A DNA stretch of 64,000 bases from an uncultured Mollicutes bacterium. GTDB taxonomy: Bacteria; Bacillota_I; Bacilli_A; ML615J-28; CAG-313. The notes under the pieces were generated by a model. That model did not search any database and was not told where the DNA came from. It saw nothing but the letters and a program-made list of their open reading frames with translations. This document shows, in pieces, positions 3 to 15,245 of the stretch. Where the stretch lies: the NCBI GenBank assembly GCA_900539265.1, contig UQBM01000004.1, positions 7,982-71,981 of the forward strand, in the 5' to 3' direction. A program made the translations under genes and the position numbers. Position 1 is the stretch's first letter. Each line of letters starts with the position of its first letter.

Positions 3-1244
3 ATGTATATTAGTAGAGTGATTGAAAATACTATAAAAAATTTTTCAAATGAATTTTCTGTTATTGTTGTTACAGGTGCTAGACAAGTTGGTAAATCTAC
101 ATTGCTTCAAATGATTAAAGAAGATGATATGAATTATGTTACTTTAGATGATTTAGATGCAAGAACACTGGCAAAAGCAGATCCAAAATATTTTTTAGAA
201 CAATATGGATATCCTTTAATTATTGATGAAATACAATATGCTTCAAATTTATTACCATATATAAAAATAATAGTAGATGAATATCGTTTAAAATCTTTAA
301 AAAATAATACTAAACAAAAAGCTTTGTTCTGGTTAACTGGTTCTCAACAATTTAGATTAATGAAAGATGTAAGTGAATCATTAGCGGGTAGAATTGGGGT
401 TTTAAATTTATACTCATTATCTAATAGTGAAATAAATAAAAGCAATGTTGGTCTATTTAGTCCTAAATTAGATGTTCTTAAAGAAAAACAAAAAAATAGT
501 ATTGAAAAGAAAGGTAATGTATTTGAAAGAATATTTAATGGTGGTATGCCAACTGTTGTAAGTAATATAGCAGAAAGAAATAATTATTTTTCTTCTTATG
601 TTAATACATATATTGAACGAGATGTAAGAGAATTATTAAATGTTGGAAAAACATTAGAGTTTTATAATTTTATGCAATATATAGCTGTTAGAACTGCCCA
701 AGAATTAAATTATGCTAATATCGCAAAAGAAATAGGAGTAGATTCGAAAACAATTAAAAGTTGGATTAGTATATTAGAAGCATCTGGTATAATATATTTA
801 TTACAACCATATTATTCTAATGTTTCAAATAGAATCATTAAAGCTCCTAAATTATATTTTATGGATACTGGATTATGTAGTTATTTAGCAAAATATCCAA
901 ATCCTGAAACCTTAGAAGTTGGAGCATTATCTGGAGCAATTTTTGAAACATTTGTTGTGAGTGAAATTATCAAAAACTTTTCAAATTATGGAATAGATCC
1001 AAAAATTAATTTGTATTACTATCGTGACAAAGATCAAAAAGAAGTTGATTTAGTTTATGTAGAAGGAAATACTTTATATCCAATAGAAATAAAAAAAGGT
1101 ATAAGTCCAAATAATCCAGATAAAAACTTTAGTGTCTTAAAGAAATACAGTGATGATGTTAGACCAGGTATTGTTATTTGTTTAACGCAAAAACTACAAC
1201 CAATAAACAAAGATTGTTGGTTATGCCCAGTTAATTTAATATAA
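3..1244 (+). CDS. AAA+ ATPase of the AAA_14/DUF4143 (COG1373) family
   Basis: 413-aa ORF. Walker A-like motif GARQVGKST near the N-terminus and a DUF4143-like C-terminal region; typical size for this family. Confidence 0.7.
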   Translation: MYISRVIENTIKNFSNEFSVIVVTGARQVGKSTLLQMIKEDDMNYVTLDDLDARTLAKADPKYFLEQYGYPLIIDEIQYASNLLPYIKIIVDEYRLKSLKNNTKQKALFWLTGSQQFRLMKDVSESLAGRIGVLNLYSLSNSEINKSNVGLFSPKLDVLKEKQKNSIEKKGNVFERIFNGGMPTVVSNIAERNNYFSSYVNTYIERDVRELLNVGKTLEFYNFMQYIAVRTAQELNYANIAKEIGVDSKTIKSWISILEASGIIYLLQPYYSNVSNRIIKAPKLYFMDTGLCSYLAKYPNPETLEVGALSGAIFETFVVSEIIKNFSNYGIDPKINLYYYRDKDQKEVDLVYVEGNTLYPIEIKKGISPNNPDKNFSVLKKYSDDVRPGIVICLTQKLQPINKDCWLCPVNLI

Positions 1245-2325: not shown

Positions 2326-2653
2326 AATTATAGTTATAAAGAATAAAACCACTTAAAGGATTAATATTCCAATGGGTGGTTTTTATGCTTTGTGGACCGA
2401 TTGTAGAGCCTGTAGCAGTTCTTTAAAATTATATCGAACAACAAACTAGAGTAAAAAGGAAACGAGGGTGTTGGCAATTTTATAAGGTTTTAATCTATAT
2501 AAAATAATATATTAATTGTTAGACTCATATGTTTTGTTTATATGAAAATAGAAAGTCCAAAGTTTATATAATTTAAGTAATATAAAATTTTCTAAAATAT
2601 GACAAAAAACCCATGTTATTTTTACTTCGTGACAATTTTTTTCTCAAAAAGCT

Positions 2654-2681
2654 TGCAATTGTGTTTTTTATGTGTTATAAT
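2654..2681 (+). promoter_or_regulatory. Sigma-A-type promoter for the hsd operon (TTGCAA, 16 nt, TGtTATAAT extended -10)
   Basis: TTGCAA at 2654-2659 and TGtTATAAT at 2673-2681, 33 nt upstream of the first ATG (2714). CGTGACAA motifs flank it at 2628-2635 and 2687-2694. Confidence 0.4.
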
Positions 2682-2713
2682 TTACTCGTGACAAATACAT
2701 AGGAGGTATTGCT

Positions 2714-3292
2714 ATGGTAGTAAAAGATATAGCGATTGTTGGAAGTGGTCTTGTAGTTTCAAGAAAAAAGGCAATTCACACAAAAGATATCATCAAGTCA
2801 TACAAACAATTAAATCTTAGAGCAATCAATAAAAATGGATATATAGAAGAACAGGAATTAGAAATATTAAATGTAAAAGAAATTATAGATGATTATTATC
2901 TTACACATGAAGGAGATATAATTGTTAGATTAACTGATCCTTTCACTGCTATATATATTAGTAAAGATATGGAAAATATTGTAATCAGCTCAAACTTCTG
3001 TGTAATAAGATGTTCAGAAAATTACTGCCCTGATTTTTTATCTTATTATATAAATAGTGATTCTGCAAGAAAATCATTATTAAGTAATCTGCAAGGATCT
3101 ATAATGAAGAATATAAATATGTCTGCAATTGGAGAAATGGAAATCCCGAATATCCCTTTAAAGAAACAGCATATAATTGGAAATTTGTTTAAAGCACAAA
3201 CACAAAAAATTATTATATTAAATAAAATACAAGAAAAGGAAGATAAATTACAAAAAGCTATTTTAGTAAAAATAGAAAATATGGAGGATTAA
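2714..3292 (+). CDS. hsdS: Half-size Type I R-M specificity subunit (single target-recognition domain HsdS)
   Basis: 192 aa. C-terminal IPNIPLKKQHIIGNLFKAQTQKII resembles the conserved HsdS central/coiled-coil motif (iPlPpl.EQ..Iv). Only one TRD is present. GGAGG RBS; sits directly upstream of hsdR. Confidence 0.6.
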   Translation: MVVKDIAIVGSGLVVSRKKAIHTKDIIKSYKQLNLRAINKNGYIEEQELEILNVKEIIDDYYLTHEGDIIVRLTDPFTAIYISKDMENIVISSNFCVIRCSENYCPDFLSYYINSDSARKSLLSNLQGSIMKNINMSAIGEMEIPNIPLKKQHIIGNLFKAQTQKIIILNKIQEKEDKLQKAILVKIENMED

Positions 3293-3294
3293 TA

Positions 3295-6200
3295 ATGAAT
3301 AGTAGTAAAATGTTAGAAAAAAATATATCCCAATATCCAGCACTAGAATTATTTCAAAAATTAGGTTATAAATATATTTCTCCAGAAGATTGTATTGTAC
3401 AAAGAAAAGGCACATATGGGTGTATTCTTCAAGATATTCTTAAAGAACAATTAAAAAAATTAAATAGTTATGAATATAATGGGAAAGTTTGTAAGTTTTC
3501 AAATTTTAATATTGAAAAAGCAGTTTCAGATTTAGATGTACCAATTCAAGAAGGTTTAATTGTTGCTAGTGAAAAGGTATATAATCTTCTTACTATGGGA
3601 AGAAGTTATGTAGAACAAGTAGATGATAGAAAAGTATCATTTGATTTAAACTATATTGATTGGCACAATTTTGAAAATAATGTATTTCATGTAACTCAAG
3701 AATTTGCTGTAGATAGTCACACAGGCGAACATAATGCAAGAGTTGATATTGTTTTATTTGTGAATGGGATCCCTTTTGCAGCTATCGAGTGTAAATCTGG
3801 TGTAGAATCAGTAGATCAAGCAGTGGAACAAAATATTAGAAATCAAACAGATTTTTATATACCTCAATTATTTAAATATGTTTCACTTGTAGTAGCATGT
3901 AATAAAAATGAAGTCAAATATGGAACAACTAGAACAAAAAAGAAATTTTATTCAGTTTGGAAATTTGAAAATGATGAACCAGTTGAAATTGAAGAAAAGA
4001 TTAATAACTTAAAATTAGGAAGATTGGCGACATATCAAGATAAAATATTCACAGCTATGATGACTCCTGAAAGATTGATTGAAATAGCAAGATATTTTGT
4101 TTTATTCGATGCAAACGTTAAAAAGGTGTGTAGATATCAACAATATTATGCTGTAAAAAATATCATTTCTACAATACAAAAATATGATTCAAATAATAAT
4201 AGACAAAGTGGTATAATTTGGCATACACAGGGTAGTGGTAAGTCACTAACTATGGTTATGATAGCAAATTATATATTAACTAATATTAATCCAGGTAAAA
4301 GTAAAGTTGTAATTGTTACAGATAGAAAAGATTTAGATAAACAAATTGCAAGAACGTTTAGCAATACTAAAATTAAACCTGCAAGAGCTATTAGCGGTAG
4401 AAATTTGGTTGAATTAATTTCAGAAGGAAAAGCAGACGTTATAACATCTATAATTAATAAATTTAATACAGCAGAAAAGTTCAATACGAGAGTTGATGAA
4501 AAAGATATTTTTATTTTAGTAGATGAATCACATCGTAGTAATTATGGTGAGTTAGCTGTTAAAATGAGAAGAGTATTCCCTAATGCTTGTTATTTAGGAT
4601 TTACAGGTACACCACTAATGAAAAACGATAAAACTGCTATGAAATTTGGTGGACACTATATACACAAATATACAATTAAAAATGGTGTTGATGATAAAGC
4701 TATTGTTCCATTAGTTTATGAAGGAAGATTTGTGGAACAAACAGTTGATTCTACAAATATAGATTTATGGTTTAAGAAAACATGTAGCAAACTTAACGAT
4801 AAACAAAAAGATGAACTAAGCAGAAAATGGAGTTCAATCCAAAAACTTAATAGTACTTATGCTAGAATTGAAAGAATAGCCCTTGATATAGATGAGCATT
4901 TTACAAATAATATTAAGGCAACTGGATTTAAAGCTATTTTAGCAACAAATTCAAAATTAGATGCAGTTAGATATTATAATACATTTAAACATTTTAGTGA
5001 ATTAGAAGTAGCAGTTTGTATTTCATCACCAGATATGAGAGAAGGATATGAAGATTTAGATGAAAGCAATCTTCCTGAAGTACAAAAATTTTGGAAAGAA
5101 ATGATGGAAATATATAATGATGCCGATGATTATGAAGAAAGTATCAGAAATAAGTTTGTAGATGGAGACCTAGATATATTAATTGTATGTTCAAAATTAC
5201 TTACAGGATTTGATGCACCAATATGTCAAGTTTTATATATTGATAAGCAATTGAAAGAGCATGGTTTATTACAGGCGATTGCAAGAACTAATCGACTATA
5301 CGAAGGAAAAGATTATGGATTGATTGTTGATTATAGAGGGTTGCTTCCACAGTTAAATGACGCAATGAATGTTTATTCTGGGGACAATGGTTTAGATAAG
5401 TTTGATAAAAAAGATTTAGAAGGGCTTATTACAGATGTATTAACTTCGGTCGCTGGATTAAGACAAGCGTATACAAATCTCGAAAATAATTTTATTTCTA
5501 TTGAAAATAAAAATGATGAAGAAGAATATGAAGTATATCTAGAACAACATGAAGATATTAGAAATAAATTTTATAATGATTTATGTGAATTCGGAAAAAA
5601 ATTATCATTGGTGTTAGGGAGTGAAAATGCCTATACAGCTATTGTAGATAGTGATCCTAAAGAGATAAAACTATATAAAGATAAATTTATCTTTTATTCA
5701 AAATTAAGAGTAATGATTAAGAAAAGATGTGCCGAAACAATAGATAATAAAGACTATGAAAATCAAATGAGAAATTTATTAGATAAACATTTATCAGTTG
5801 TCGGTTTAAAAATTCTTACAAAACCATTAGATATTATGAATAAAGGAGAATTAGAAAAAGAAATTGAGGATTTAGGAAGTAAAGCGTCAAAAGCAGATGC
5901 TATAAGATATAACTTAAGTAAAAATATTTCAGTTAATTATGACACTAATCCTGCTTATTATGATAGTTTTTCAAAAAGAATTAAAGATGTACTGGAACAA
6001 TACAAAGAAAAAGTAATAAGTGATGCAGAATATTTACAAGCTATGAGTAAAATATTGGATGATTTTAGAACAAATAAGAGTGGAATATCTTATCCAAAAT
6101 CAATTCAACAAAGTGTTCATGCTCAAGCGTTTTATGGTGTAATTCTTCCTATAATTAATGAAAACGAAGAATATGATATTAATTTAATTGGAGAAATAGC

Positions 6201-6396
6201 AATTAAAATTGCTGAAATAATTCAAGAACATACAAAAGTTGATTGGAGTAATAACGTTGATATACATAATAATATTGCTCAAGATATTGATGATATGTTT
6301 TATGAATATGAAAAACAAGGGGTCATAAAGTTATCTTTTGATAAGATTGATAAAGTAACAGAAAATGTTACAACAGTTGCATTAAAGAGGTTTTAA
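3295..6396 (+). CDS. hsdR: Type I restriction enzyme R subunit (HsdR)
   Basis: 1033 aa. SF2 helicase motifs: GSGKSLTM (Walker A), DESHRS (DEAH-like motif II), GFTGTPL (motif III). Its position in the hsdR-hsdM-hsdS cluster supports the call. Confidence 0.9.
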   Translation: MNSSKMLEKNISQYPALELFQKLGYKYISPEDCIVQRKGTYGCILQDILKEQLKKLNSYEYNGKVCKFSNFNIEKAVSDLDVPIQEGLIVASEKVYNLLTMGRSYVEQVDDRKVSFDLNYIDWHNFENNVFHVTQEFAVDSHTGEHNARVDIVLFVNGIPFAAIECKSGVESVDQAVEQNIRNQTDFYIPQLFKYVSLVVACNKNEVKYGTTRTKKKFYSVWKFENDEPVEIEEKINNLKLGRLATYQDKIFTAMMTPERLIEIARYFVLFDANVKKVCRYQQYYAVKNIISTIQKYDSNNNRQSGIIWHTQGSGKSLTMVMIANYILTNINPGKSKVVIVTDRKDLDKQIARTFSNTKIKPARAISGRNLVELISEGKADVITSIINKFNTAEKFNTRVDEKDIFILVDESHRSNYGELAVKMRRVFPNACYLGFTGTPLMKNDKTAMKFGGHYIHKYTIKNGVDDKAIVPLVYEGRFVEQTVDSTNIDLWFKKTCSKLNDKQKDELSRKWSSIQKLNSTYARIERIALDIDEHFTNNIKATGFKAILATNSKLDAVRYYNTFKHFSELEVAVCISSPDMREGYEDLDESNLPEVQKFWKEMMEIYNDADDYEESIRNKFVDGDLDILIVCSKLLTGFDAPICQVLYIDKQLKEHGLLQAIARTNRLYEGKDYGLIVDYRGLLPQLNDAMNVYSGDNGLDKFDKKDLEGLITDVLTSVAGLRQAYTNLENNFISIENKNDEEEYEVYLEQHEDIRNKFYNDLCEFGKKLSLVLGSENAYTAIVDSDPKEIKLYKDKFIFYSKLRVMIKKRCAETIDNKDYENQMRNLLDKHLSVVGLKILTKPLDIMNKGELEKEIEDLGSKASKADAIRYNLSKNISVNYDTNPAYYDSFSKRIKDVLEQYKEKVISDAEYLQAMSKILDDFRTNKSGISYPKSIQQSVHAQAFYGVILPIINENEEYDINLIGEIAIKIAEIIQEHTKVDWSNNVDIHNNIAQDIDDMFYEYEKQGVIKLSFDKIDKVTENVTTVALKRF

Positions 6397-6398
6397 AA

Positions 6399-7121
6399 AT
6401 GAAGTATGAATTTTCTTATAACGGAAAAACAATAGCTTATGAAATAATTTATAAGAAAGTAAAAAATATCAATATAAGAGTTAAACCAAGTGGAGAAGTT
6501 GTTGTTTCTTGTAATGAATCAATTGATAATAAAACTATTGAGTTAGAAATGATTAAACGAGCAAACTGGTTATTGGATACTATTGATAAATATAAAACAA
6601 ATTTAATTGAATTCGTTGATTCAAATCTTAGTTTGGTTGATGGAGAAGCTTTCTTAATATTAGGAAAAGTATTAAGAATTAAAAATATTGAATCAAATCA
6701 GTTTAAAATTGACTATGATAATAACTATTTATACATTTATAGACCAAATCAAAGAGGTATAAAGATGAAATTCAATCAATGGTATTTAAATTTTGTTACT
6801 TCCCAATTTAATGATATGGTAAATAAAGCATATAAAAAGTTTGAAAAATATGGTATTGTAAAACCAGAAGTTATTTATAAAAATATGAAAACTAGATGGG
6901 GAACTTGCAATATTGAAAAAGCTTTAATAACATTAAATATTCAGTTAATTAAAGTAGACCCATTTTTAACTGAGTATGTAATATGTCATGAATTGACACA
7001 TTTAAAATATAGAAATCATAATAAAGATTTTTATACATTCTTAACAGCAATGATTCCAGATTGGAAACAAAGAGAACAAATTTTAAACAATATTTTTATA
7101 AATAATTTAGGAGGTATTTAA
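6399..7121 (+). CDS. YgjP-like (DUF45/M48-type) zinc metallohydrolase embedded in the R-M operon
   Basis: 240 aa. WGTCN...ICHELTHLKYRNHNKDFY matches the WGSC and HExxH motifs of the YgjP/SprT-like family. Translationally coupled between hsdR and hsdM. Confidence 0.75.
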   Translation: MKYEFSYNGKTIAYEIIYKKVKNINIRVKPSGEVVVSCNESIDNKTIELEMIKRANWLLDTIDKYKTNLIEFVDSNLSLVDGEAFLILGKVLRIKNIESNQFKIDYDNNYLYIYRPNQRGIKMKFNQWYLNFVTSQFNDMVNKAYKKFEKYGIVKPEVIYKNMKTRWGTCNIEKALITLNIQLIKVDPFLTEYVICHELTHLKYRNHNKDFYTFLTAMIPDWKQREQILNNIFINNLGGI

Positions 7122-7122
7122 A

Positions 7123-8634
7123 ATGACAACTAAAGAAGATATTCAAAAAGTCTTATGGAACGCTGCAGGAAGTTTTAGAGGAAAAATTGATAGTGGTAAG
7201 TATAAAGATTATATTTTATCAATGCTTTTCGTAAAATATTTAAGTGATGCGATTAAAGAAACGAAAGAAGAACTTATTAAAAAATATAATGGTGATGAAG
7301 AAAGAATTCAAAGAGCTTTACAAAGAGGAAGATTCTTTGTTCCTGATGAAGCAACATTTGATTACTTATATGATAATAAAAAGGCAACAGATATTGGAAG
7401 TAAAATTAATATTGCTTTAAAGGCAATTGAAAATGCAAATGGCGGTAAATTAAGAAATATCTTTGGCCAAATTGATTTTAATTCTCAAGAACTTGGAGAT
7501 GGAAGAGAGAAGGTTGCATTATTAAGTAACTTCCTTGAAGATTTCAGTTCTATTGATTTAAGACCAAGCCAATTAGAAGGTGTTGATGAAATTGGTAATG
7601 CTTATATGTATATGCTTGCAGTTTTTGCTAGTGATGCAGGTAAAAAAGGTGGCGAATTTTATACACCTGAACAAGTATCAGAAATCCTTGCGAGAGTCGT
7701 AGAACCTAAAGAAAATGATCGTATTTATGATGGTGCTTGTGGTTCTGGTTCTTTATTAATTAAAGCATTCAATCAAGTGTCTAATAGAAAAGCACAAATT
7801 TATGGACAAGAGAGAAACTTCCAAACTTGGGGTTTATGTAGAATGAATATGTTTATTCATAACATCGATGATGCTATTATTTATCAAGGTGATACTATTT
7901 CAAACCCTCAAAATATTGAAGATGGAAAGTTAATGCAATTTCAATGTATAGTTGCAAATCCACCATTCTCATTAGATAAATGGGCAAATGGTTATGCAGC
8001 AGATAGTAATGACAAAGATTTCAAAATGTCAAAAGAACTAGACCCATATAAACGTTTTGATTGGGGTGTTCCACCAAAAAGTAAAGGTGACTATGCTTTC
8101 ATACTTCATATGTTGCATTGTCTTGATGGTAATAATGGTAGAATGGCAATAATTATGCCTCATGGTGTTTTATTCAGAGGAGCAAGTGAAGGCGAAATTA
8201 GAAAGAAACTTATTGATCTTAACTTATTAGATGCTGTAATTGGATTGCCTGCTAACCTTTTCTACGGAACAAGTATTCCTGCTTGTATTCTTGTATTTAA
8301 GAAAAATAGAGCAAATAAAGATGTTGTTTTTATTGATGCATCAAAGGACTTTGAACAAGGTAAAAATCAAAACAAATTAAGACCTGAAGATATTGATAAG
8401 ATTGTATCAACATATAAAGCAAGACAAGAAGTTGAAAAATATTGTCACATAGCAAAAATAGATGAAATTAAGGAAAATGATTATAATTTAAATATTCCTC
8501 GTTATGTAGACACATTTGAAGAAGAAGAACAAATTGACATTCATGCAGTAATGGCAGAAATTAAAGAATTAGAAAAACAAAGAACAGAACTTGATAAAGA
8601 AATAGAGGGTTATCTTAAGGAATTAGGATTATAA
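7123..8634 (+). CDS. hsdM: Type I R-M N6-adenine DNA methyltransferase (HsdM)
   Basis: 503 aa. NPPF catalytic motif (VANPPFS) and an AdoMet-binding-like DGACGSGS motif; HsdM N-terminal domain. Confidence 0.9.
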   Translation: MTTKEDIQKVLWNAAGSFRGKIDSGKYKDYILSMLFVKYLSDAIKETKEELIKKYNGDEERIQRALQRGRFFVPDEATFDYLYDNKKATDIGSKINIALKAIENANGGKLRNIFGQIDFNSQELGDGREKVALLSNFLEDFSSIDLRPSQLEGVDEIGNAYMYMLAVFASDAGKKGGEFYTPEQVSEILARVVEPKENDRIYDGACGSGSLLIKAFNQVSNRKAQIYGQERNFQTWGLCRMNMFIHNIDDAIIYQGDTISNPQNIEDGKLMQFQCIVANPPFSLDKWANGYAADSNDKDFKMSKELDPYKRFDWGVPPKSKGDYAFILHMLHCLDGNNGRMAIIMPHGVLFRGASEGEIRKKLIDLNLLDAVIGLPANLFYGTSIPACILVFKKNRANKDVVFIDASKDFEQGKNQNKLRPEDIDKIVSTYKARQEVEKYCHIAKIDEIKENDYNLNIPRYVDTFEEEEQIDIHAVMAEIKELEKQRTELDKEIEGYLKELGL

Positions 8635-8648
8635 AGAGGTCATGACTA

Positions 8649-9806
8649 ATGAGTGAAAAAACAATCAATAAAGTCCCTAATGTTCCCAATTTAAGATTCT
8701 TCAATGATGACAACACTTGGTCAAATTCATCTCTTGAAAAAAAGTGTAAATTTGTTGGTGGTGGGACACCATCAACATTGAATCAAGATTATTGGAATGG
8801 AGATATTGCATGGATATCATCAGCTGATTTACTTGAAGAAAATGTTCATAAATACAATGTAAGTCGATTCATAACAAAAGAGGCCATAATGAATAGTGCC
8901 ACAAAAATATGTCCTATTAATACGATAATGATAGTGTCGAGAGTTGGTGTGGGAAAAATAGCAATTAGTAATTCTGAAATATGTACTAGTCAAGATTTTA
9001 CAAATCTCACAGAATATCAATTTGATAAAAACTTTTTAGTTTATTCACTTAAAAACACTATAGAAAAACTTAAAAATTCATCTCAAGGAACATCAATAAA
9101 AGGAATTACATCAAAAGAGATAAAGCAAATAAATATCTTCTATCCAGAAATAATCGAACAATGTAAAATAGGATTGTTTTTCAAAAAAATAGATGAACGA
9201 ATAGAGTTTCAAAGCAAAATCATTAACAAACTTGAATCCTTAATATGTACTTTAAGGTCTACAATTTTTAATAGTTATAACTGGGAATGGAATAGATTAG
9301 ATACTTATATTAAATCTGGTATTATTACATTAAAGCGTGGAAACGTTATTCCTAAACATGATGAGGACAGTGAATTTAAATTTCCAGTATATTCGTCATC
9401 AATACATAATAATGGTTTAATGGGTTATAACAATTCATACATGTTTGATAAAGAATTAATTACATGGTCTGTTGATGGTGGTGGAAACTTCTTTTATAGA
9501 CCTAAGCATAAATTTAATGTTACAAATGTCTGTGGAATTATGGAAATAACAGACAATTCATATAATTATAGATTTTTATCAGAAATTCTTTTAGCACAAC
9601 ATTCAAGACTTATATTCGATTATCAAACAAAAGCACACCCTAGTGTTATTGAGAAATTATATAAAATACCCAATGTGGATATAAAAATTCAAGAAAAAAT
9701 AGCTTATATATTTGAGCTTTATTACACAAAGTTACAAAAAGAAAAAGATATACTTTCACTTTATAAAAAGCAAAAAGCATATCTTCTCCAAAATATGTTT
9801 ATATAA
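8649..9806 (+). CDS. hsdS: Type I R-M specificity subunit (HsdS), expressed copy with two TRDs
   Basis: 385 aa. N-terminal KVPNVPNLRF conserved motif; central IDERIEFQSKIINKLESL and C-terminal conserved repeats typical of HsdS. Confidence 0.85.
   Translation: MSEKTINKVPNVPNLRFFNDDNTWSNSSLEKKCKFVGGGTPSTLNQDYWNGDIAWISSADLLEENVHKYNVSRFITKEAIMNSATKICPINTIMIVSRVGVGKIAISNSEICTSQDFTNLTEYQFDKNFLVYSLKNTIEKLKNSSQGTSIKGITSKEIKQINIFYPEIIEQCKIGLFFKKIDERIEFQSKIINKLESLICTLRSTIFNSYNWEWNRLDTYIKSGIITLKRGNVIPKHDEDSEFKFPVYSSSIHNNGLMGYNNSYMFDKELITWSVDGGGNFFYRPKHKFNVTNVCGIMEITDNSYNYRFLSEILLAQHSRLIFDYQTKAHPSVIEKLYKIPNVDIKIQEKIAYIFELYYTKLQKEKDILSLYKKQKAYLLQNMFI
8674..8698. repeat. Inverted repeat IR1, left copy (5' end of expressed hsdS)
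   Basis: TCCCtAATGTTCCCAATTTAAGATT. It is the reverse complement of 10925-10949, with 20 contiguous identical nt plus 4 more after one mismatch, and it encodes the shared PNVPNLRF segment. Confidence 0.8.
9210..9226. repeat. Inverted repeat IR2, left copy (central conserved region of expressed hsdS)
   Basis: CAAAGCAAAATCATTAA. A 17/17 reverse-complement match to 10358-10374, lying between TRD1 and TRD2. Confidence 0.6.
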
Positions 9807-9813
9807 ACATATT
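9792..9813. repeat. Perfect 22-bp palindrome at the tail-to-tail junction of the two hsdS genes
   Basis: AATATGTTTATATAAACATATT is its own reverse complement. It contains the stop codons of both convergent hsdS ORFs, and both end in ...NMFI. Confidence 0.85.
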
Positions 9814-11019
9814 AGCTAATAAATATTTCTTTTGTAAAAGATAGTCATTAAGAATTTGTTCTTCAATGGCTATTTTTTTGTCAAGTGATGTTACGATTAA
9901 AGTAATTTTAGAAATTAATTCCTTATTAGGGATCTTAACTTTAATACCAGTAAGAGTAGATAAGACTATATAAGGCATTGCTCCTACATTTTTTTCACGA
10001 TGTAGTTTTTTAGGAAGTTCAATTTCTAAAGCGAATTTTATATACAATGGATTTTTTATAAAATTTTGCAAAACATATGTTCTCTGATATGCATCAAACT
10101 TACCATTAAAATATTTAATTAATCCAACTTCACCATTTCCAGAAATTATTAACGATTCTCCTTCAAATGAGTATTTGTCTATATAATAATCTTCTTTAGC
10201 ACAAGTGAAGAATTTATATTTACCGTTAGGATTCATAGCATTTGCATCTAATTTTCCAGTTGTAATACTACATAGTTGATTTAAGGATATGTAATCAAAA
10301 TCATTTAAATCATTATAAATAGTATGTAGAATTCTATTTCTATAAGATTTATATTCCTTAATGATTTTGCTTTGGGTTAAAATTCTTTCATCAATCATTG
10401 ATAAGAATTTTCCAATTTTATTTTGTTCTTCTATTGTTGGAGTATAAAGTTTTAAGTTCTTTAGCTCTGGAATTCCAATTCTTTGACGTGTTGATCCGGC
10501 AGTTTTTGAGGCTATTATTTTTCTAATATTTTTTGTGTTAATTTGTTCTCTCATAAAAAGTTTATTACATTTTTTAATATCTAAATTAACTCGTATAGCA
10601 TCGGAACCTAACACATATCTTTTATAAAAATCATGAGCAATACAGCAACGACCTGCAGGCATCATTTTAGCAATAATTAAATCACCTGGATATGCGTTGT
10701 TTGCAATTAAACTATCAGCTTTTTTTACACTTGTGAATATTAATCTTTCAGTAAAATTTAAATAATCTTCTGTTATATTACTTAATTGAATGATAGGAAC
10801 ACCATCCAGCGTATAATCATTTGTCTTTAAATCTGACCCAAAAGGTCCGCCAGCAAAAGATTTTTTTTCATTTGTCGTAAGTAATTCTAGGCTTGTTGTT
10901 GTCCACTCATATATAAATTCAGGAAATCTTAAATTGGGAACATTGGGGATTTTATTCCTTATAATATTTAAAAATTTATTAAATTGACTTATGTATAGGA
11001 GGTAATTAATATGACTCAA
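9799..11019 (-). CDS. hsdS: Inverted silent hsdS cassette, convergent with and overlapping the expressed hsdS
   Basis: 406-aa ORF on the minus strand. It has the IPNVPNLRFP motif, the central IDERILTQSKII motif and the same C-terminal NMFI ending as the expressed hsdS. Its first about 23 codons (upstream of the inverted repeat) are probably not native, and it has no obvious promoter of its own. Confidence 0.75.
   Translation of the reverse strand: MSHINYLLYISQFNKFLNIIRNKIPNVPNLRFPEFIYEWTTTSLELLTTNEKKSFAGGPFGSDLKTNDYTLDGVPIIQLSNITEDYLNFTERLIFTSVKKADSLIANNAYPGDLIIAKMMPAGRCCIAHDFYKRYVLGSDAIRVNLDIKKCNKLFMREQINTKNIRKIIASKTAGSTRQRIGIPELKNLKLYTPTIEEQNKIGKFLSMIDERILTQSKIIKEYKSYRNRILHTIYNDLNDFDYISLNQLCSITTGKLDANAMNPNGKYKFFTCAKEDYYIDKYSFEGESLIISGNGEVGLIKYFNGKFDAYQRTYVLQNFIKNPLYIKFALEIELPKKLHREKNVGAMPYIVLSTLTGIKVKIPNKELISKITLIVTSLDKKIAIEEQILNDYLLQKKYLLANMFI
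10358..10374. repeat. Inverted repeat IR2, right copy (central region of silent hsdS)
   Basis: TTAATGATTTTGCTTTG, the reverse complement of 9210-9226. Confidence 0.6.
10925..10949. repeat. Inverted repeat IR1, right copy (5' end of silent hsdS)
   Basis: AATCTTAAATTGGGAACATTgGGGA, the reverse complement of 8674-8698. Confidence 0.8.
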
Positions 11020-11934
11020 ATTAAATTAAGTCAGATAATTGACTTATGGAAGAAAGACAAAAAGCAATATGTTAAAAAATCAACATATTCTGCATATGTG
11101 CTTTTAGTTAAAAATCATTTATTACCATATTTTGGTGATAAATACGAAGTTGAGGAGTCAGATGTTCAAAAGTTTGTATTTGAAAAATTGGAACAAGGAC
11201 TTAGTCAAAAAACTATTATGGACATTTTGATTGTATTAAAGATGATACTTAAGTTTGGAGTAAAACATAGGTATTTGTCTTGTCGTGAAATTGAAATTAA
11301 ATTCCCCACACAAAGAGAAAATGAGGGACTTGAGGTATTAAGCCGTTCAAATCAAAGAAAAATAATGGATTATATTGAAAAAAATTTTACTTTTAAAAAC
11401 TTAGGCATTTATATTTGTTTGAGTACAGGATTAAGAATAGGAGAATTATGTGCGTTAACATGGGATGATATAGATGAAGATAATGGTGTTATTTTAGTTA
11501 GGAAAACTATTCAAAGAATATATGTTATTGATGATGTTAAAAAAAGAACTGAATTAATTATAGATACACCAAAGACTAAAAATTCGATCAGAGATATTCC
11601 TATGACATCGAATTTAATTAAGATAATTAAACCTATTAAGAAAATTGTAAATAATGAATATTATGTTTTGACTAATGATATTAAACCAACAGAACCTAGA
11701 ACATATAGGAATTATTATAAAAGGTTTATGAAAAAATTTGATATTCCGGATTTAAAGTTTCATGGATTAAGACATAGTTTTGCAACTAGGTGTATTGAAG
11801 GAAAATGTGATTATAAAACTGTTAGCGTTATTTTAGGTCATTCAAATATAAGCACAACATTAAATTTATATGTCCACCCAAATCTTGAACAAAAGAAAAA
11901 ATGTATTAATCAGATGAATAGGTCATTAAGATAA
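11011..11934 (+). CDS. Tyrosine site-specific recombinase (phage-integrase family), putative hsdS invertase
   Basis: 307 aa. C-terminal catalytic signature HGLRHSFAT...LGHSNISTTLNLYVH (R-H-R-Y family). Its start overlaps the 5' end of the inverted hsdS by 9 nt. Confidence 0.85.
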   Translation: MTQIKLSQIIDLWKKDKKQYVKKSTYSAYVLLVKNHLLPYFGDKYEVEESDVQKFVFEKLEQGLSQKTIMDILIVLKMILKFGVKHRYLSCREIEIKFPTQRENEGLEVLSRSNQRKIMDYIEKNFTFKNLGIYICLSTGLRIGELCALTWDDIDEDNGVILVRKTIQRIYVIDDVKKRTELIIDTPKTKNSIRDIPMTSNLIKIIKPIKKIVNNEYYVLTNDIKPTEPRTYRNYYKRFMKKFDIPDLKFHGLRHSFATRCIEGKCDYKTVSVILGHSNISTTLNLYVHPNLEQKKKCINQMNRSLR

Positions 11935-11969: not shown

Positions 11970-11998
11970 TTGAAAAAATAACAAAAAAAGTGTATAAT
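11970..11998 (+). promoter_or_regulatory. Putative sigma-A promoter (TTGAAA, 17 nt, TATAAT) for the DUF262 gene
   Basis: TTGAAA at 11970-11975 and TATAAT at 11993-11998 with 17-nt spacing, 25 nt upstream of the ATG at 12024. Confidence 0.35.
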
Positions 11999-12023
11999 AA
12001 ATATGTGATTGGAGTTGATTAAT

Positions 12024-15000
12024 ATGAAAGATATGTTGTCATTATCAGAATTATTTAATAAGAAGTTATTTAGAATACCAGACTATCAAAGAGGTTATGC
12101 TTGGGAAAAACAACAAGTAGAAGATTTTTGGAATGATTTAATGCTGCTTCATAAAGATAAAGAACATTATACAGGTATGTTATCATTACAAGAAATTAGA
12201 CCTAAATTAGATGATGTTAATTATTATGATTGTATTGATTTAAGAGATACTCATAAAATTTTTCATATTGTTGATGGACAACAAAGATTAACAACTTCAA
12301 TGCTATTAATTAATCAAATTATTAAAATTGATTATAGTAAATATGAACCAAGTATTTTTAATAATGAATTTATAAGTAGCATTAAAGGTAAATATATTTG
12401 TAATAACAAATGTTATGTGTTTGGCTATGAAGTAGATAATCCTAGTTTTGTTTATCTTAAAAATATATTTGGCGAATCAGATCCTACACTAATTAAGGAA
12501 TCAAGATATACAAGAAACTTATCAGTTGCAAGTCATATCTTTGAAGAGAACTTAAAGAAGCTAATAAAAGATAAAGGTGTAAAGGCCGTTGAAGATTTAT
12601 TCTATAAGTTAACAGAAAAGTTACAATTTAATATTCATTATATTAAACATAATTTTGATGTTCACGTTGCTTTTGAAACAATGAATAATCGTGGTAAGAA
12701 ATTGTCCAACTTAGAGATATTAAAGAATAGATTAATATATCTTTCAACTTTATATCCAGATTCAAAAAAAATGAAAGCAAAGAAATTAAATCTACAAAAA
12801 GAAATAAATGATGCTTGGAAAGAAATATATTATAATTTAGGTAAAGATTTAAATAATGAACTAGACGATGATATGTTCTTAAAAGCTCATTGGGCATTAT
12901 ATTTTAAGTTTAGTAAGACTGATTCAGATACATATGTTAATGAATTGTTAAATAAATATTTTATTCCTGCAGCTGTTAATGATTTTATAAGGGAATATAA
13001 TGATAGTGAACTTGATGAAGATGATATAGATTGGAGTGATGATGCACTAACGATTGAAGAAATATCATCATATGTAAAAAGTTTAAGAGAAACATCAAAA
13101 TATTATTATGATACTTTTGTTCCTAATCCTAAACTATCAGAAGAAGAACAAAACTATATTCGTAAACTTAATAGAATAGGTATTGGATATAGTGCATTAC
13201 GAAATTTAGTTGTTGCATCATATTTGGTAAGTAAAGATAAAGATGCAAGTTTTGCTGAAAAACGTATTGAACTATTTAAAGCAATTGAAAGATTTATTTT
13301 CTTATGTTTTAGAACAGCAGGTTTTCAATCATCATATAAAAGTGGAGTATATTATAGATATGCAGGCCAAATGTTACAACCAGAAGGTAACTTATCTATT
13401 GATGCAGTAATTGAAGATATTAATAAAACAGTTGATGATGATATGCCACAAATCATTCAATCGTTTATAACACAATCAAATGGATGGTTTAGTGAAAATA
13501 ATCATTATGGATTCTATGCATGGACCGGATTAAAATACTTTTTATTTGAATATGAAGAATCACTTTTAAATGCATCAACAGGAACAAAGATATCAGGAGA
13601 TAATTACTTTAAGAAAAGTGAAAAAGATAAAGTATCAATTGAACATATTTTTCCACAAACACCTTCAAAATATTATTGGGCTAACCTTTATAGATCATAT
13701 GATAAAGATAATGAAGTTTGGAAACTAGCAGGAACAATAGGTAACTTATTACCTCTTTCAAGTTCTATTAATTCAAGTTTGCAAAATGATTCATTTGAAG
13801 CTAAGGTTAATGGAAGAAAAGGTGCTGTTGGATATGAAATGAATTCATATTCAGCTATTGAAGTATCAAAACACCATAAATGGTTAGAAGAAGATTATCC
13901 ATCATTTAATAAATATTATTTTAGAAATATTGATGAAACTGAATTTGACTGGACACCAGAAAAGATAGAGAGAAGAGGAATACATTTACTTAAATTCTTA
14001 TCTAAAAGATATAATTGTCCTTTAACAGATGAAGATATAATTAGTTTATTGCATATTGATTTTATTCATGATGAAATTAGACAAGCATTACCACCATTAG
14101 AAAAGTATGATGATGATGTCTTTGAAATCACTTCACAAAAAGGATACAATGTTGATAGAGTAAAATACTGGACTGCCTTTGAAGAATATTGTGAAGGTTT
14201 AGGATACGGATTTATGACAACATATGATGATCCTTCTGAAAGAAACTATTTTGACTTGAGATATCAAGAAGATTTTAACTATGTATTTAAAGTAAATCGT
14301 AATGGAATTGAATTCTGTTTATATTGCTATACTCCAACAGTTTACTCAAAAATGGCTTCAATTAAAAATGAGCTAGAAGAAGCTTTAGGATGTGAATTTG
14401 TTTGGGATTTAAGCAAGGCTAATTCACTTGCTAAAAGAATTTCATTATTTAAGGATATTGATTATTCTAAATCAAATAACTGGGATGAATGTTTCGAATG
14501 GTATATTGAATGTTTTAATAGTATAAAGGACATATTGTTATTACATTTTCCTGTTAAAAAACAAAGCGGTACAATGAGTGTTGATGAACATTTATTAACT
14601 AAACCAGAAAAAATGAGTAAAATCTATAAAGAGATTTATGGAAAAGTAAAAGACAAAATTAGTGATTTTTATGAAGTTGCTACAAATCCATACATTGCGT
14701 TTAGAACAAACAAGAATGATAACTTTGCTGAAATATGGATTCAACGTTCACAAATTAAAGTGATGTTACGTTCAAACGAAGTAGGATATCCTGTAGGTTC
14801 TAAAGTTGGAGATTCATATAGATGGACACACAACTGGAGAATTGCTTTAGTCAGTGAGAAACAAATAGACGAAGTTGTAGCATGTATTTTAATCAGTTAT
14901 TATTCAATTGATAATAATGTAGAAATGATGAATAAAATTAAGGACAATATAAATCATATAACTGATTTTGATTTACAACAGTCAAATACATTTGAAAGAG

Positions 15001-15245
15001 GGGAAGTATTTTCTTTTGTGAAATGTGGAATACCAGCTGGAGCAGAACTAGAATACATTTATGATCCTTCTATAAAATGTACAGTTTATGATGAAAGAAA
15101 GATTAATTATAATGGTGAAATAATGTATATGACTACATTAGTAAAACAAATAACAAAAATACCATCACCAAATGGACCATCATATTTTAGTTATAATGGA
15201 AAAAATCTTTCTGAATATTATATTGAATATCAATCAAAGAAATAA
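12024..15245 (+). CDS. GmrSD-like Type IV (modification-dependent) restriction protein: DUF262 + DUF1524 with a long C-terminal extension
   Basis: 1073 aa from the ATG at 12024 (the ORF track's TTG at 12009 lacks an RBS; GGAG lies 9 nt upstream of the ATG). The N-terminus has IPDYQRGYAW and DGQQRLTT (DUF262/ParB-like NTPase hallmarks). Mid-protein SIEHIFPQTP matches the DUF1524 His-Me finger motif. About 450 aa of additional C-terminal sequence has unknown function. Confidence 0.8.
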   Translation: MKDMLSLSELFNKKLFRIPDYQRGYAWEKQQVEDFWNDLMLLHKDKEHYTGMLSLQEIRPKLDDVNYYDCIDLRDTHKIFHIVDGQQRLTTSMLLINQIIKIDYSKYEPSIFNNEFISSIKGKYICNNKCYVFGYEVDNPSFVYLKNIFGESDPTLIKESRYTRNLSVASHIFEENLKKLIKDKGVKAVEDLFYKLTEKLQFNIHYIKHNFDVHVAFETMNNRGKKLSNLEILKNRLIYLSTLYPDSKKMKAKKLNLQKEINDAWKEIYYNLGKDLNNELDDDMFLKAHWALYFKFSKTDSDTYVNELLNKYFIPAAVNDFIREYNDSELDEDDIDWSDDALTIEEISSYVKSLRETSKYYYDTFVPNPKLSEEEQNYIRKLNRIGIGYSALRNLVVASYLVSKDKDASFAEKRIELFKAIERFIFLCFRTAGFQSSYKSGVYYRYAGQMLQPEGNLSIDAVIEDINKTVDDDMPQIIQSFITQSNGWFSENNHYGFYAWTGLKYFLFEYEESLLNASTGTKISGDNYFKKSEKDKVSIEHIFPQTPSKYYWANLYRSYDKDNEVWKLAGTIGNLLPLSSSINSSLQNDSFEAKVNGRKGAVGYEMNSYSAIEVSKHHKWLEEDYPSFNKYYFRNIDETEFDWTPEKIERRGIHLLKFLSKRYNCPLTDEDIISLLHIDFIHDEIRQALPPLEKYDDDVFEITSQKGYNVDRVKYWTAFEEYCEGLGYGFMTTYDDPSERNYFDLRYQEDFNYVFKVNRNGIEFCLYCYTPTVYSKMASIKNELEEALGCEFVWDLSKANSLAKRISLFKDIDYSKSNNWDECFEWYIECFNSIKDILLLHFPVKKQSGTMSVDEHLLTKPEKMSKIYKEIYGKVKDKISDFYEVATNPYIAFRTNKNDNFAEIWIQRSQIKVMLRSNEVGYPVGSKVGDSYRWTHNWRIALVSEKQIDEVVACILISYYSIDNNVEMMNKIKDNINHITDFDLQQSNTFERGEVFSFVKCGIPAGAELEYIYDPSIKCTVYDERKINYNGEIMYMTTLVKQITKIPSPNGPSYFSYNGKNLSEYYIEYQSKK

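What the first reader, a model, noticed from the sequence alone, without database searches (positions are those of the whole stretch)
2714..11934. Complete phase-variable (shufflon-type) Type I restriction-modification locus with an unusual gene order
The locus reads half-hsdS, hsdR, YgjP-like hydrolase, hsdM, expressed hsdS, convergent silent hsdS, then a tyrosine recombinase overlapping the silent hsdS start. This matches the design of inverting hsdS systems described in Mycoplasma pulmonis, Streptococcus pneumoniae (SpnIII/creX) and Bacteroides. Here it carries two extras, a leading half-S gene and a YgjP-like gene, and the recombinase lies downstream of the silent cassette rather than inside or upstream of it. 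The system predicts switching of methylation specificity, and therefore phase-variable epigenetic regulation.
Basis: partly seen in the sequence, partly recalled or inferred. Interest (0 to 1): 0.6.

Follow-up and report, generated by a model that had tools for sequence, protein, structure and literature searches.

The report
This is a complete Type I restriction-modification operon whose DNA-recognition gene is rewired by a neighbouring recombinase flipping two short inverted repeats; all four predicted versions exist in public gut metagenomes, so it is a real but ordinary example of a well-known kind of switch.

Summary
The locus reads short hsdS-like gene, hsdR, YgjP-like metalloprotease, hsdM, expressed hsdS, convergent start-less hsdS', tyrosine recombinase.

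Two inverted-repeat pairs lie at the same codons of both hsdS copies: a 20-nt core (IR1) and a 17-nt core (IR2). Inverting the window in silico at IR1, IR2 or both predicts three new HsdS proteins. All three, and the window's own, occur exactly in public assemblies. Contigs in the IR1 and IR2 states differ from the prediction by 1 nt in 4812. A second allele set shows all four states with 0-1 mismatches in 3350 nt. Switching is therefore real and fast relative to mutation.

The gene order is not unusual. hsdM-hsdS-hsdS'-recombinase is conserved across phyla, the repeats match Bacteroides fragilis Bfa9343I, and a YgjP-like gene after hsdR is a common accessory. The recombinase/hsdS' overlap is an ORF-calling artefact.

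The leading "half-S" is an invariant member of a large family of ~190-aa single-domain S-like proteins that head such operons. Its role is open.

Verdict: a new member of a known kind. Epigenetic regulation was not tested.

The parts
2614..2694 (+). Operon promoter region. It holds TTGCAA (2653-2658), a 17-nt spacer and an extended -10 TGTTATAAT (-10 ends at 2681). Two copies of TGTTAT-N9-CGTGACAA lie at 2614-2635 and 2673-2694.
   Evidence: (repeat D20). The same two-copy layout, with a TTGACA -35, is conserved upstream of half-S homologues that are only 49-63% identical (L052, L054, L056). Function is inferred.
2714..3292 (+). It is constant and not part of the shuffling.
   Evidence: Pfam Methylase_S at 27.4 bits and PADLOC Specificity_I at 1.6e-15. 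An AGGAGG ribosome-binding site precedes it, and its stop lies 2 nt before hsdR. It is identical or differs by 1 aa in 21 loci. It shows no similarity to any TRD of the shuffled pool. The AF2 model has pLDDT 90.8 with helix 149-190. Its best fold match is the Esub1 homodimer.
3295..6396 (+). hsdR, the restriction/translocase subunit (1033 aa).
   Evidence: HSDR_N, SWI2_SNF2, T1R_D3 and T1RH-like_C domains. TIGR00348 scores 496 bits.
6399..7121 (+). YgjP-like / SprT-like zinc metalloprotease-fold protein (240 aa, HELTH motif). It is an accessory of unknown role.
   Evidence: PF01863 at 2.4e-42; motif seen. Homologues lie directly after hsdR in Aliarcobacter and Haloplanus plasmids. In Vibrio and Klebsiella plasmids they sit in the Type I locus after an unannotated hsdR-sized gap.
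7123..8634 (+). hsdM, the N6-adenine methyltransferase subunit (503 aa).
   Evidence: N6_Mtase at 9.6e-108 and HsdM_N. TIGR00497 scores 338 bits.
8649..9806 (+). Expressed hsdS (385 aa; here TRD allele A1 plus B1). It has a fixed leader (8649-8678), TRD1 (8699-9209) and TRD2 with the C-terminal helix (9227-9806).
   Evidence: Two Methylase_S stretches. It starts 14 nt after hsdM.
8667..8698 (+). IR1 left arm (32 nt, with a 20-nt exact core at 8679-8698). Crossover is confined to 8679-8692 (AATGTTCCCAATTT, which encodes NVPNL).
   Evidence: Polymorphic positions 8673 and 8678 stay in place, while core position 15 travels with the cassette.
9210..9226 (+). IR2 left arm (17-nt exact CAAAGCAAAATCATTAA, which encodes QSKII in the central conserved helix).
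9799..10974 (-). Silent hsdS' (TRD alleles A0 plus B0). It converges on hsdS with stop codons overlapping by 8 nt, and has no ATG, GTG or ribosome-binding site.
   Evidence: The same sequence is the expressed gene in L001 and L009.
10358..10374 (-). IR2 right arm.
   Evidence: Inversion of 9210-10374 reproduces L061-L063 with 1 mismatch in 4812 nt.
10925..10956 (-). IR1 right arm (core 10925-10944).
   Evidence: Inversion of 8679-10944 reproduces L001 and L009 with 1 mismatch in 4812 nt.
11011..11934 (+). Tyrosine site-specific recombinase (307 aa), the presumed invertase. It lies outside and downstream of the invertible segments.
   Evidence: Phage_integrase at 5.5e-29 plus a SAM-like N-terminal domain. 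Catalytic residues R142, K188/K190, H251, R254, H277 and Y287 are present. It is linked to hsdS/hsdS' pairs across phyla.

Best explanation
The locus is a Type I restriction-modification operon (S_short, HsdR, YgjP-like, HsdM, HsdS) transcribed rightwards from a promoter in front of S_short. Only the hsdS copy directly after hsdM can be translated. A second, start-less hsdS' faces it.

The adjacent tyrosine recombinase exchanges DNA at two pairs of short inverted repeats that sit at identical codons of both copies. IR1 lies just after the fixed N-terminal leader. IR2 lies in the central conserved helix.

- Inversion at IR1 flips 2226 bp and swaps both target-recognition domains.
- Inversion at IR2 flips 1131 bp and swaps only the second domain.

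Together they yield four in-frame HsdS proteins (A1B1, A1B0, A0B0, A0B1). These should give four bipartite methylation and restriction specificities within one lineage.

The following are shown: the gene families, the repeats, the silent state of hsdS' at sequence level, and the natural existence of all four arrangements on otherwise identical DNA. The following are inferred: that this recombinase is the catalyst, that each variant methylates a different motif, and any downstream effect on phage defence or gene expression.
For: - **Families.** All subunits score above curated cut-offs.
- **Repeats.** Each core occurs exactly twice in 64 kb, against 0.01 expected.
- **Prediction test.** The four HsdS proteins derived by in-silico inversion are all present as exact full-length sequences in public assemblies. 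They were seen on 43, 8, 22 and 11 contigs.
- **DNA level.** L001 and L009 equal the window inverted at the IR1 core. L061-L063 equal the window inverted at IR2. Each differs from the prediction by a single SNP in 4812 nt.
- **Second allele set.** 10 distinct contigs carry identical recombinase or HsdM. They show all four states with 0 mismatches in 3350 nt, except L005 with 1.
- **Crossover position.** Flanking polymorphisms confine the IR1 crossover to a 14-nt stretch. That precision is expected of site-specific recombination.
- **Not an assembly artefact.** The repeats (17-22 nt) are shorter than the k-mer sizes written in many contig names (k99-k141). The arrangements therefore rest on reads that span the junctions. 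This is an inference from contig names.
- **Recombinase.** It has all catalytic residues. Homologues at 60-86% identity sit after hsdS(+)/hsdS'(-) pairs in Anaeroplasmataceae, Christensenellaceae, Flavobacterium, Dysgonomonas, Prevotella and others. Most of those loci have the same two repeat types at the same codons.
- **Silent copy.** hsdS' has no ATG, GTG or ribosome-binding site.
Against: - No reads from a single clonal culture were available. Switching is shown across samples and strains, not within one cell line.
- No methylome data were available, so the four specificities are inferred from what is known of HsdS TRDs.
- The catalytic role of this particular recombinase rests on linkage and conserved sites only. 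In S. pneumoniae, some hsdS inversions on long repeats proceed without the local recombinase (PMC6620402).
- Promoter and terminator scans are uninformative in DNA of 25% GC: 95 promoter-like sites were found against 107 expected, and no terminators.
Confidence: 0.9

Rival explanations
1. The inversions are produced by general (RecA-type) homologous recombination between the conserved hsdS segments. On this reading the neighbouring recombinase is an unrelated integrase.
For: In S. pneumoniae spnIII, inversion on long repeats continues without the known site-specific recombinases (PMC6620402, listed).
Against: The identical stretches are only 17-22 nt long, and the IR1 crossover falls within a 14-nt window. 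That is too short for efficient RecA exchange (established knowledge). The recombinase-hsdS' linkage and both repeat motifs are conserved across phyla.
Confidence: 0.05
2. The different arrangements are old, fixed strain polymorphisms or assembly chimeras, not ongoing phase variation.
For: The evidence is from consensus assemblies of different samples. Within-clone heterogeneity was not observed directly.
Against: The four states sit on flanks with 0-1 differences in 3.3-4.8 kb, so rearrangement far outpaces point mutation. The repeats are shorter than assembler k-mers. Eleven of 26 species-representative contigs end within 100-800 nt upstream of the recombinase gene, as expected if mixed orientations break assemblies.
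Confidence: 0.04
3. Role of S_short, option A. It forms a homodimer and acts as a second, constant specificity subunit with HsdM and HsdR, recognising a symmetric site. The system would then have one fixed and one switching specificity.
For: The protein has a TRD plus a single dimerisation helix. Its best fold match is the crystallographic homodimer Esub1 (TM-score 0.70-0.73; PMC11754733). Truncated HsdS dimers give palindromic specificities (PMC3874165). Loci L054 and L055 keep intact S_short-hsdR-ygjP-hsdM with no long hsdS in the 2-3 kb available downstream.
Against: The whole protein, including the TRD, is conserved across the family, which is unlike normal specificity subunits. In staphylococci the analogous hsdS_short does not set the motif (PMC10030836). 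Esub1 did not clearly bind HsdM (PMC11754733). L054 and L055 could be decayed loci.
Confidence: 0.35
4. Role of S_short, option B. It is an auxiliary or assembly subunit needed for accurate methylation by the long HsdS, as reported for staphylococcal hsdRSMS. Alternatively it is a DNA-binding regulator of the operon, acting at the duplicated promoter element.
For: Staphylococcal hsdS_short (191 aa) is fully conserved and is required together with hsdS_long (PMC10030836). S_short occupies the position that the XRE regulator holds in the B. fragilis operon (PMC7641763). A conserved two-copy element overlaps its promoter. The authors of the Esub1 work suggest that Esub1 is a regulator.
Against: Similarity to staphylococcal hsdS_short is only generic (20% identity, E 7e-4; hhalign probability 13%). 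No binding data exist. The promoter repeats may simply be tandem promoters.
Confidence: 0.45

Closest known systems
Bacteroides fragilis NCTC9343 Bfa9343I inverton with BfiA (invertase clade 3 of Huang et al. 2020, PMC7672463; Ben-Assa et al. 2020, PMC7641763)
   Same: The operon layout matches: leader gene, hsdR, accessory gene, hsdM, expressed hsdS, silent cassettes, then a tyrosine recombinase outside and downstream of the invertible DNA. The repeats lie at the same two hsdS codon positions. B. fragilis IR3 (AATTTCCCAACTTTGCGATT) corresponds to AATGTTCCCAATTTAAGATT here. B. fragilis IR2 (CCAAAACAAAATAAT) corresponds to TCAAAGCAAAATCAT here. Relatives of the recombinase are mostly from Bacteroidota.
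   Different: This locus has one full silent hsdS (4 variants) rather than three silent cassettes (8 variants). Its leader gene is an S-like half protein, not an XRE regulator. Its accessory gene is YgjP-like. The host is a gut bacterium with 25% GC. BfiA itself could not be compared.
Enterococcus faecalis EfiA-type inverton (clade 4, PMC7672463)
   Same: One expressed hsdS and one full-length silent hsdS give four alleles through two repeat pairs.
   Different: The invertase there lies within the inverton and belongs to a different clade. It was not compared here.
Streptococcus pneumoniae SpnD39III / ivr (cod) locus with CreX/PsrA (clade 1)
   Same: hsdS is expressed from the hsd operon. Promoter-less cassettes are exchanged by inversion, which yields alternative methylomes.
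   Different: The recombinase there sits between the cassettes. There are three repeat pairs of 15, 85 and 333 bp and six variants (my recollection of the literature). The long repeats recombine without CreX (PMC6620402).
Staphylococcal hsdRSMS systems with hsdS_short (Schiffer et al. 2023, PMC10030836)
   Same: A ~191-aa single-TRD S-like gene is conserved over its whole length and never forms part of the long hsdS. It is co-encoded with a variable long hsdS. HsdM is 44% identical to the one here.
   Different: The gene order is R-S_short-M-S_long, with no YgjP, no silent cassette and no invertase. S_short similarity is marginal.
Esub1 of Streptococcus pyogenes (PDB 8VSQ/8VSR; PMC11754733)
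   Same: It is the best structural match of the S_short model, with a TRD-like head plus a dimerisation helix, and it is a homodimer of half-S units.
   Different: Esub1 is encoded away from any Type I genes and carries an insertion helix bound by the phage protein Prx. Sequence similarity is weak (profile E 5e-8, below that to M. jannaschii HsdS).

Membership tests
Type I restriction-modification system | HsdR with a PD-(D/E)xK nuclease N-domain and an SF2 motor. | tested here: met
   HSDR_N, SWI2_SNF2/ResIII, T1R_D3 and C-terminal domains. TIGR00348 scores 496 bits against a cut-off of 285.
Type I restriction-modification system | HsdM gamma-class N6-adenine methyltransferase. | tested here: met
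   N6_Mtase at 9.6e-108 and HsdM_N. TIGR00497 scores 338 bits against 243.
Type I restriction-modification system | HsdS with two TRDs separated by conserved helices. | tested here: met
   Both hsdS copies have two Methylase_S stretches. Only the N-terminal, central and C-terminal segments are conserved between the copies.
Type I restriction-modification system | Bipartite m6A motif, and ATP-dependent cleavage away from the site. | not testable with these tools
   Needs methylome and biochemical data.
Epigenetic inverton / phase-variable Type I system (definition of PMC7672463) | At least two hsdS genes, with inverted repeats inside their coding regions. | tested here: met
Epigenetic inverton / phase-variable Type I system (definition of PMC7672463) | The inversions occur, and they preserve the reading frames. 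| tested here: met
   All four predicted full-length HsdS proteins are found exactly. DNA states match with 0-1 mismatches. The evidence is across samples, not within one clone.
Epigenetic inverton / phase-variable Type I system (definition of PMC7672463) | An invertase gene is co-located with the hsdS genes. | tested here: met
   A tyrosine recombinase with a complete catalytic set lies 54 nt beyond the right arm of IR1.
Epigenetic inverton / phase-variable Type I system (definition of PMC7672463) | Only the first hsdS is expressed; the secondary copies are silent templates. | tested here: inconclusive
   hsdS' lacks a start codon and ribosome-binding site. No transcript data were available, and the promoter scan was uninformative.
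Epigenetic inverton / phase-variable Type I system (definition of PMC7672463) | Each variant methylates a distinct motif, and heterogeneity arises within a clone. | not testable with these tools
   Needs long-read and methylome data from a culture.
B. fragilis BfiA-type (clade 3) inverton | The invertase lies outside and downstream of the invertible hsdS region. | tested here: met
   compared with the locus descriptions.
B. fragilis BfiA-type (clade 3) inverton | The repeats are homologous to the published IR2 and IR3. | tested here: met
   Same codon positions. By hand alignment of the published repeats with the window cores, IR3 matches at 14 of 20 nt and IR2 at 12 of 14 nt. Intermediate forms occur in Dysgonomonas, Flavobacterium, Prevotella and Mediterranea loci.
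B. fragilis BfiA-type (clade 3) inverton | The recombinase groups with BfiA. | not tested
   No BfiA sequence was available, and the paper's supplementary tables are not held. Relatives at 60-80% identity are mostly from Bacteroidota.
SpnD39III / CreX-type (clade 1) inverton | The recombinase gene lies between the hsdS cassettes inside the inverton. | tested here: not met
   The recombinase lies outside, at 11011-11934.
Staphylococcal hsdRSMS two-S variant | A ~190-aa single-TRD S-like gene that is conserved throughout and never part of the long hsdS. | tested here: met
   Invariant in 21 loci. No match to any pool TRD. The family has 174 representatives at E<=1e-30; nearly all of the 150 listed are about 185-205 aa (range 109-255).
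Staphylococcal hsdRSMS two-S variant | Sequence homology to staphylococcal hsdS_short, and R-S-M-S gene order. | tested here: not met
   20% identity with E 7e-4. hhalign probability is 13%. The order here is S_short-R-YgjP-M-S.
R64-type shufflon (Rci) | Several invertible segments bounded by sfx repeats that remodel the C-terminus of pilV. | tested here: not met
   There are only two nested repeat pairs inside hsdS. 'Shufflon-type' holds as an analogy only.

The most novel reading that the evidence does not exclude
The leading S_short is not a leftover half gene. It is a dedicated, constant subunit of a widespread and uncharacterised branch of Type I enzymes (S_short-HsdR-YgjP-HsdM core). It could act as a homodimeric second specificity subunit giving a fixed palindromic motif alongside the switching one. 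It could instead act as an obligatory assembly or regulatory partner, possibly binding the conserved duplicated element in its own promoter. Either way, this branch would work with two kinds of S protein, one frozen and one phase-variable.
Probability: 0.35. Interest if true: 0.55.

Novelty: new member of a known kind. Interest (0 to 1): 0.3.

Why it matters
Inverting hsdS loci are already catalogued in hundreds of species and have been studied in S. pneumoniae, B. fragilis, E. faecalis and others. This locus therefore adds an example rather than a principle.

Its practical value has three parts.

- It is a clean, fully resolved four-state switch in a very common uncultivated gut bacterium. 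The identical HsdM is indexed in more than 1200 blocks of the assembly collection.
- The crossover has been narrowed to 14 nt.
- A large natural pool of recognition domains sits on invariant flanks: at least 8 first-domain and 9 second-domain alleles among 21 loci. This makes the locus a good system for studying phage-driven diversification and methylome heterogeneity directly in metagenomes.

The more open question it exposes is the role of the conserved S_short and YgjP-like partners of this Type I branch.

Tried and rejected
- **Half-S as a third cassette.** I tested this and rejected it. It has no IR1 or IR2 copy, no similarity to any pool TRD, and is invariant across loci.
- **Other hsdS or recombinase genes in the window.** None were found.
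- **Shared motif between IR1 and IR2.** Only a weak AATG..TTT resemblance, by eye from the cores printed, which I did not pursue.
- **Promoter and terminator scans.** At or below chance level, so not used as evidence.
- **Rfam.** Nothing in the window.
- **Invertase clade.** Assignment via the supplementary tables of PMC7672463 failed because the files are not held. No BfiA, CreX or EfiA sequences were available.
- **Literature on YgjP.** Searches for YgjP, COG1451 and DUF45 with restriction systems gave nothing useful. The association was instead checked on annotated plasmids.
- **Homology of S_short to staphylococcal hsdS_short.** Only generic.
- **Organism identity.** The one genome-contig scan returned no identical locus. 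The best matches were at 86%, in an Anaeroplasmataceae MAG and a 'Firmicutes' MAG. The host remains an unnamed low-GC gut bacterium; MAG GCA_964326335.1 carries the identical HsdM.
- **A B. finegoldii record with a 64% recombinase homologue.** It has no hsd genes nearby, so linkage to hsdS is not universal in the family.
Full report
**1. What is there**

The region 2714-11934 holds seven tightly packed ORFs.
- 2714-3292: a 192-aa single-domain S-like protein.
- 3295-6396: HsdR, with all four characteristic domains. TIGR00348 scores 496 bits against a cut-off of 285.
- 6399-7121: a YgjP-like protein with an intact HELTH zinc motif.
- 7123-8634: HsdM. TIGR00497 scores 338 bits against 243.
- 8649-9806: a two-TRD HsdS.
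- 9799-11019, minus strand: a second two-TRD HsdS that converges on the first.
- 11011-11934: a tyrosine recombinase.

The recombinase carries the full catalytic set R142, K188/190, H251, R254, H277 and Y287. Its nearest solved relative is the Tn1549 integrase (E 2e-18).

Gaps between the plus-strand genes from S_short to hsdS are 1-14 nt. No terminator-like site was found between 2300 and 15600. DNA here is about 25% GC throughout.

**2. The silent copy**

The two HsdS proteins are 27% identical. They share only the N-terminal motif NK(V/I)PNVPNLRF, the central helix and the C-terminal helix.

The minus-strand ORF reaches 11019 only through a TTG codon that lies inside the start of the recombinase gene. 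Between that codon and the conserved motif there is no ATG, GTG or Shine-Dalgarno sequence, and an in-frame stop precedes it. The apparent overlap with the recombinase is therefore an ORF-calling artefact. The cassette has no translation start of its own.

**3. The repeats**

The best inverted repeat in the region pairs 8667-8698 with 10925-10956. It is 32 nt long and 94% complementary, with a 20-nt exact core. A second repeat pairs 9210-9226 with 10358-10374 (17 nt exact).

Each core occurs exactly twice in the 64-kb window, where 0.01 matches are expected. IR1 encodes NVPNLRF just after the fixed leader. IR2 encodes QSKII in the central helix. Exchange at either repeat keeps the reading frame.

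**4. Evidence that inversion happens**

Exact-protein look-ups of the recombinase and HsdM returned 20 loci from 17 distinct human-gut and other metagenome contigs. All have the same gene order. I cut each locus at IR1 and IR2 and clustered the four TRD segments.

*The window's own allele set.*
- The window carries A1-B1 in the expressed position and A0-B0 in the silent position. L001 and L009 carry the reverse.
- Inverting the window in silico between the whole IR1 arms reproduces L001 and L009 except at five positions. One is an hsdM SNP at 8163. The other four are the arm-polymorphic positions 8673, 8678, 10945 and 10950. Those four did not move, so the crossover lies inside the core.
- Inverting at the core (8679-10944) leaves only the SNP: 1 mismatch in 4812 nt.

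*A second allele set (A2, A3, B2, B3).*
- It occurs in all four possible arrangements among 10 distinct contigs.
- Each contig matches the corresponding in-silico state over 3350 nt with 0 mismatches, except L005 with 1.
- Core position 15 (A/G) travels with the cassette. Together with the first result, this confines the IR1 crossover to AATGTTCCCAATTT (8679-8692).

*A forward prediction test.*
- I derived the four HsdS proteins expected from the window (A1B1 385 aa, A1B0 378 aa, A0B0 391 aa, A0B1 398 aa) and looked them up by exact sequence.
- All four are in the collection, on 43, 8, 22 and 11 contigs respectively.
- Contigs carrying A1B0 (L061-L063) equal the window inverted at IR2, with 1 mismatch in 4812 nt.

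*What this means.*
- The repeats are shorter than the assemblers' k-mers (k99-k141 in many contig names). The arrangements therefore reflect real molecules, not graph errors.
- The flanks are essentially identical across states, so rearrangement is much faster than point mutation. That is the signature of programmed inversion.
- Eleven of 26 species-representative contigs that encode a relative of the recombinase end 100-800 nt upstream of it, inside the silent cassette. This is what mixed orientations do to assemblies.

**5. Mechanism**

The shown and inferred steps are set out under the best explanation. The large inversion spans 2226 bp between the IR1 cores and swaps both TRDs. The nested inversion spans 1131 bp between the IR2 cores and swaps TRD2 only.

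The link to this particular recombinase is inferred from conservation. Homologues at 60-86% identity follow an hsdS(+)/hsdS'(-) pair (sometimes two pairs) in these groups:
- Anaeroplasmataceae, Christensenellaceae and Clostridia MAGs;
- Dysgonomonas, Flavobacterium limi, Prevotella and Mediterranea.

Most of those loci carry the same two repeat types, AATGTTCC(C/A)AATTTGAGATT-like and CCAAA(A/G)CAAAAT(C/A)ATTGA-like.

**6. Is the gene order unusual?**

No, for four reasons.
- In B. fragilis Bfa9343I the order is XRE regulator, hsdR, accessory gene, hsdM, hsdS cassettes, tyrosine recombinase. The invertase lies outside the invertons (PMC7641763; PMC7672463).
- The published B. fragilis IR3 and IR2 fall at the same hsdS codons as IR1 and IR2 here and resemble them.
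- I sampled the YgjP-like gene across 546 plasmid hits. In Aliarcobacter and the archaeon Haloplanus it lies directly after hsdR. In Vibrio and Klebsiella it sits in the Type I locus after an unannotated gap the size of hsdR. It is a common accessory of unknown function, with no PADLOC model.
- The locus sits in a defence island next to a GmrSD-family Type IV enzyme.

**7. The leading half-S (S_short)**

*It is not part of the shuffling.*
- It has no IR copy.
- It resembles no TRD of the pool.
- It is identical in 18 of 21 loci and differs by one residue in the other three. The long-hsdS TRDs in the same loci fall into at least 8 and 9 unrelated alleles.

*It belongs to a discrete family.*
- A word-indexed search found 54 relatives of about 190 aa, down to 37% identity.
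- A profile search of 1.84 billion representatives found 174 at E<=1e-30. Nearly all of the 150 listed are about 185-205 aa and match end to end; none exceeds 255 aa.
- In every context examined it heads an S_short-hsdR-ygjP-hsdM module.
- A 32%-identical homologue heads a Type I locus on an Aliarcobacter plasmid, which also has a full hsdS and ends with hsdR-YgjP.
- Its divergence tracks that of HsdR and HsdM, so it is co-inherited rather than exchanged.

*Its structure.* The AF2 model (pLDDT 90.8) shows a TRD-like head plus a 42-residue helix. The best structural match is Esub1, a crystallographic homodimer of half-S units (TM-score 0.70-0.73, E 6e-12). Canonical HsdS halves follow (PMC11754733). 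By sequence profile it is closest to the second TRD and conserved helix of M. jannaschii HsdS (E 7e-15).

*Two precedents frame its role.*
- Truncated HsdS dimers give palindromic specificities (PMC3874165).
- A conserved 191-aa hsdS_short in staphylococcal hsdRSMS systems is needed together with the long S (PMC10030836). Similarity of S_short to that protein is only generic.

Loci L054 and L055 keep S_short, hsdR, ygjP and hsdM intact with no long hsdS in the available downstream sequence. This hints that S_short can serve as the only S protein, but it is not proof.

**8. Comparison and novelty**

Invertase-linked hsdS invertons are known in more than 800 REBASE loci from 235 species, mostly host-associated (PMC7672463), and in independent surveys (PMC7394358, PMC9881135). 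This locus works like the E. faecalis two-cassette, four-allele design. By layout and repeat sequence it belongs with the B. fragilis type.

It is a new member of a known kind. The less explored part is the S_short and YgjP core of this Type I branch.

**9. Limits**

- No clonal read data, methylome or transcript data were available.
- Epigenetic regulation remains a hypothesis. Type I methylation does not always affect expression (PMC8287963, listed).
- The host organism could not be named.

Noticed in passing
window 2614-2635 and 2673-2694: A duplicated element, TGTTAT-N9-CGTGACAA, has copies 59 nt apart. The proximal copy overlaps the extended -10 box of the operon promoter. The same two-copy layout is conserved upstream of S_short homologues that are only 49-63% identical (L052, L054, L056) but is absent in Aliarcobacter. 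It may be an operator or a pair of tandem promoters. The locus has no controller-protein gene.
   Followed up: partly
window about 9789-9812: The convergent hsdS and hsdS' genes both end in NMFI*. Their stop codons overlap by 8 nt inside a perfect palindrome (AATATGTTTATATAAACATATT). The 8-nt overlap is present in all 21 loci, so every inversion regenerates the same junction.
   Followed up: partly
L001-L020 (hsdS regions): 21 loci carry near-identical hsdR, hsdM and recombinase genes. Among them, at least 8 TRD1 and 9 TRD2 alleles occur, in mosaic pairings. For example, L017 has A1-B0 over A7-B8 and L018 has A2-B3 over A4-B4. Cassettes are therefore also exchanged between strains, not only inverted.
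   Followed up: partly
L054 and L055, 10001-17325: A related lineage has S_short-hsdR-ygjP-hsdM but no long hsdS. hsdM is followed directly by a CBASS-type SMODS gene. In L054 that gene is interrupted by an element carrying a large serine recombinase.
   Followed up: partly
L022 502-5221; L024 5169-9903; L052 16345-20573: Related loci carry four hsdS cassettes (+ - + -) before the recombinase, with extra repeat pairs. These are larger versions of the same switch.
   Followed up: no
window 12009-15245: Immediately downstream lies a 1078-aa fusion of GmrSD_N, GmrSD_C, DUF4268 and DUF5655. This is a Type IV (modification-dependent) restriction enzyme, and it has a promoter-like site of its own (11970-11998). 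The locus is part of a defence island.
   Followed up: no
window 3-1244 and 1858-2325; L058 13106-13633: Upstream are an AAA_14/DUF4143 ATPase gene (a second copy lies further upstream in related contigs) and a GNAT acetyltransferase gene. A GNAT gene also directly precedes the short S gene on the Aliarcobacter plasmid pCNAC48. This may be coincidence.
   Followed up: no
L047 (B. finegoldii NZ_OY725936.1) 11983-12909; L041: Recombinase homologues at 60-64% identity occur with no hsd genes nearby. The recombinase family is therefore not restricted to hsdS invertons.
   Followed up: no
L021, L023, L027, L030-L032, L035-L038, L040: Eleven of 26 species-representative contigs end 100-800 nt upstream of the recombinase gene, inside the silent cassette. 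This is consistent with assemblies breaking at mixed-orientation DNA.
   Followed up: partly
window 8163: A single synonymous hsdM SNP distinguishes the window from all 23 related loci compared.
   Followed up: no
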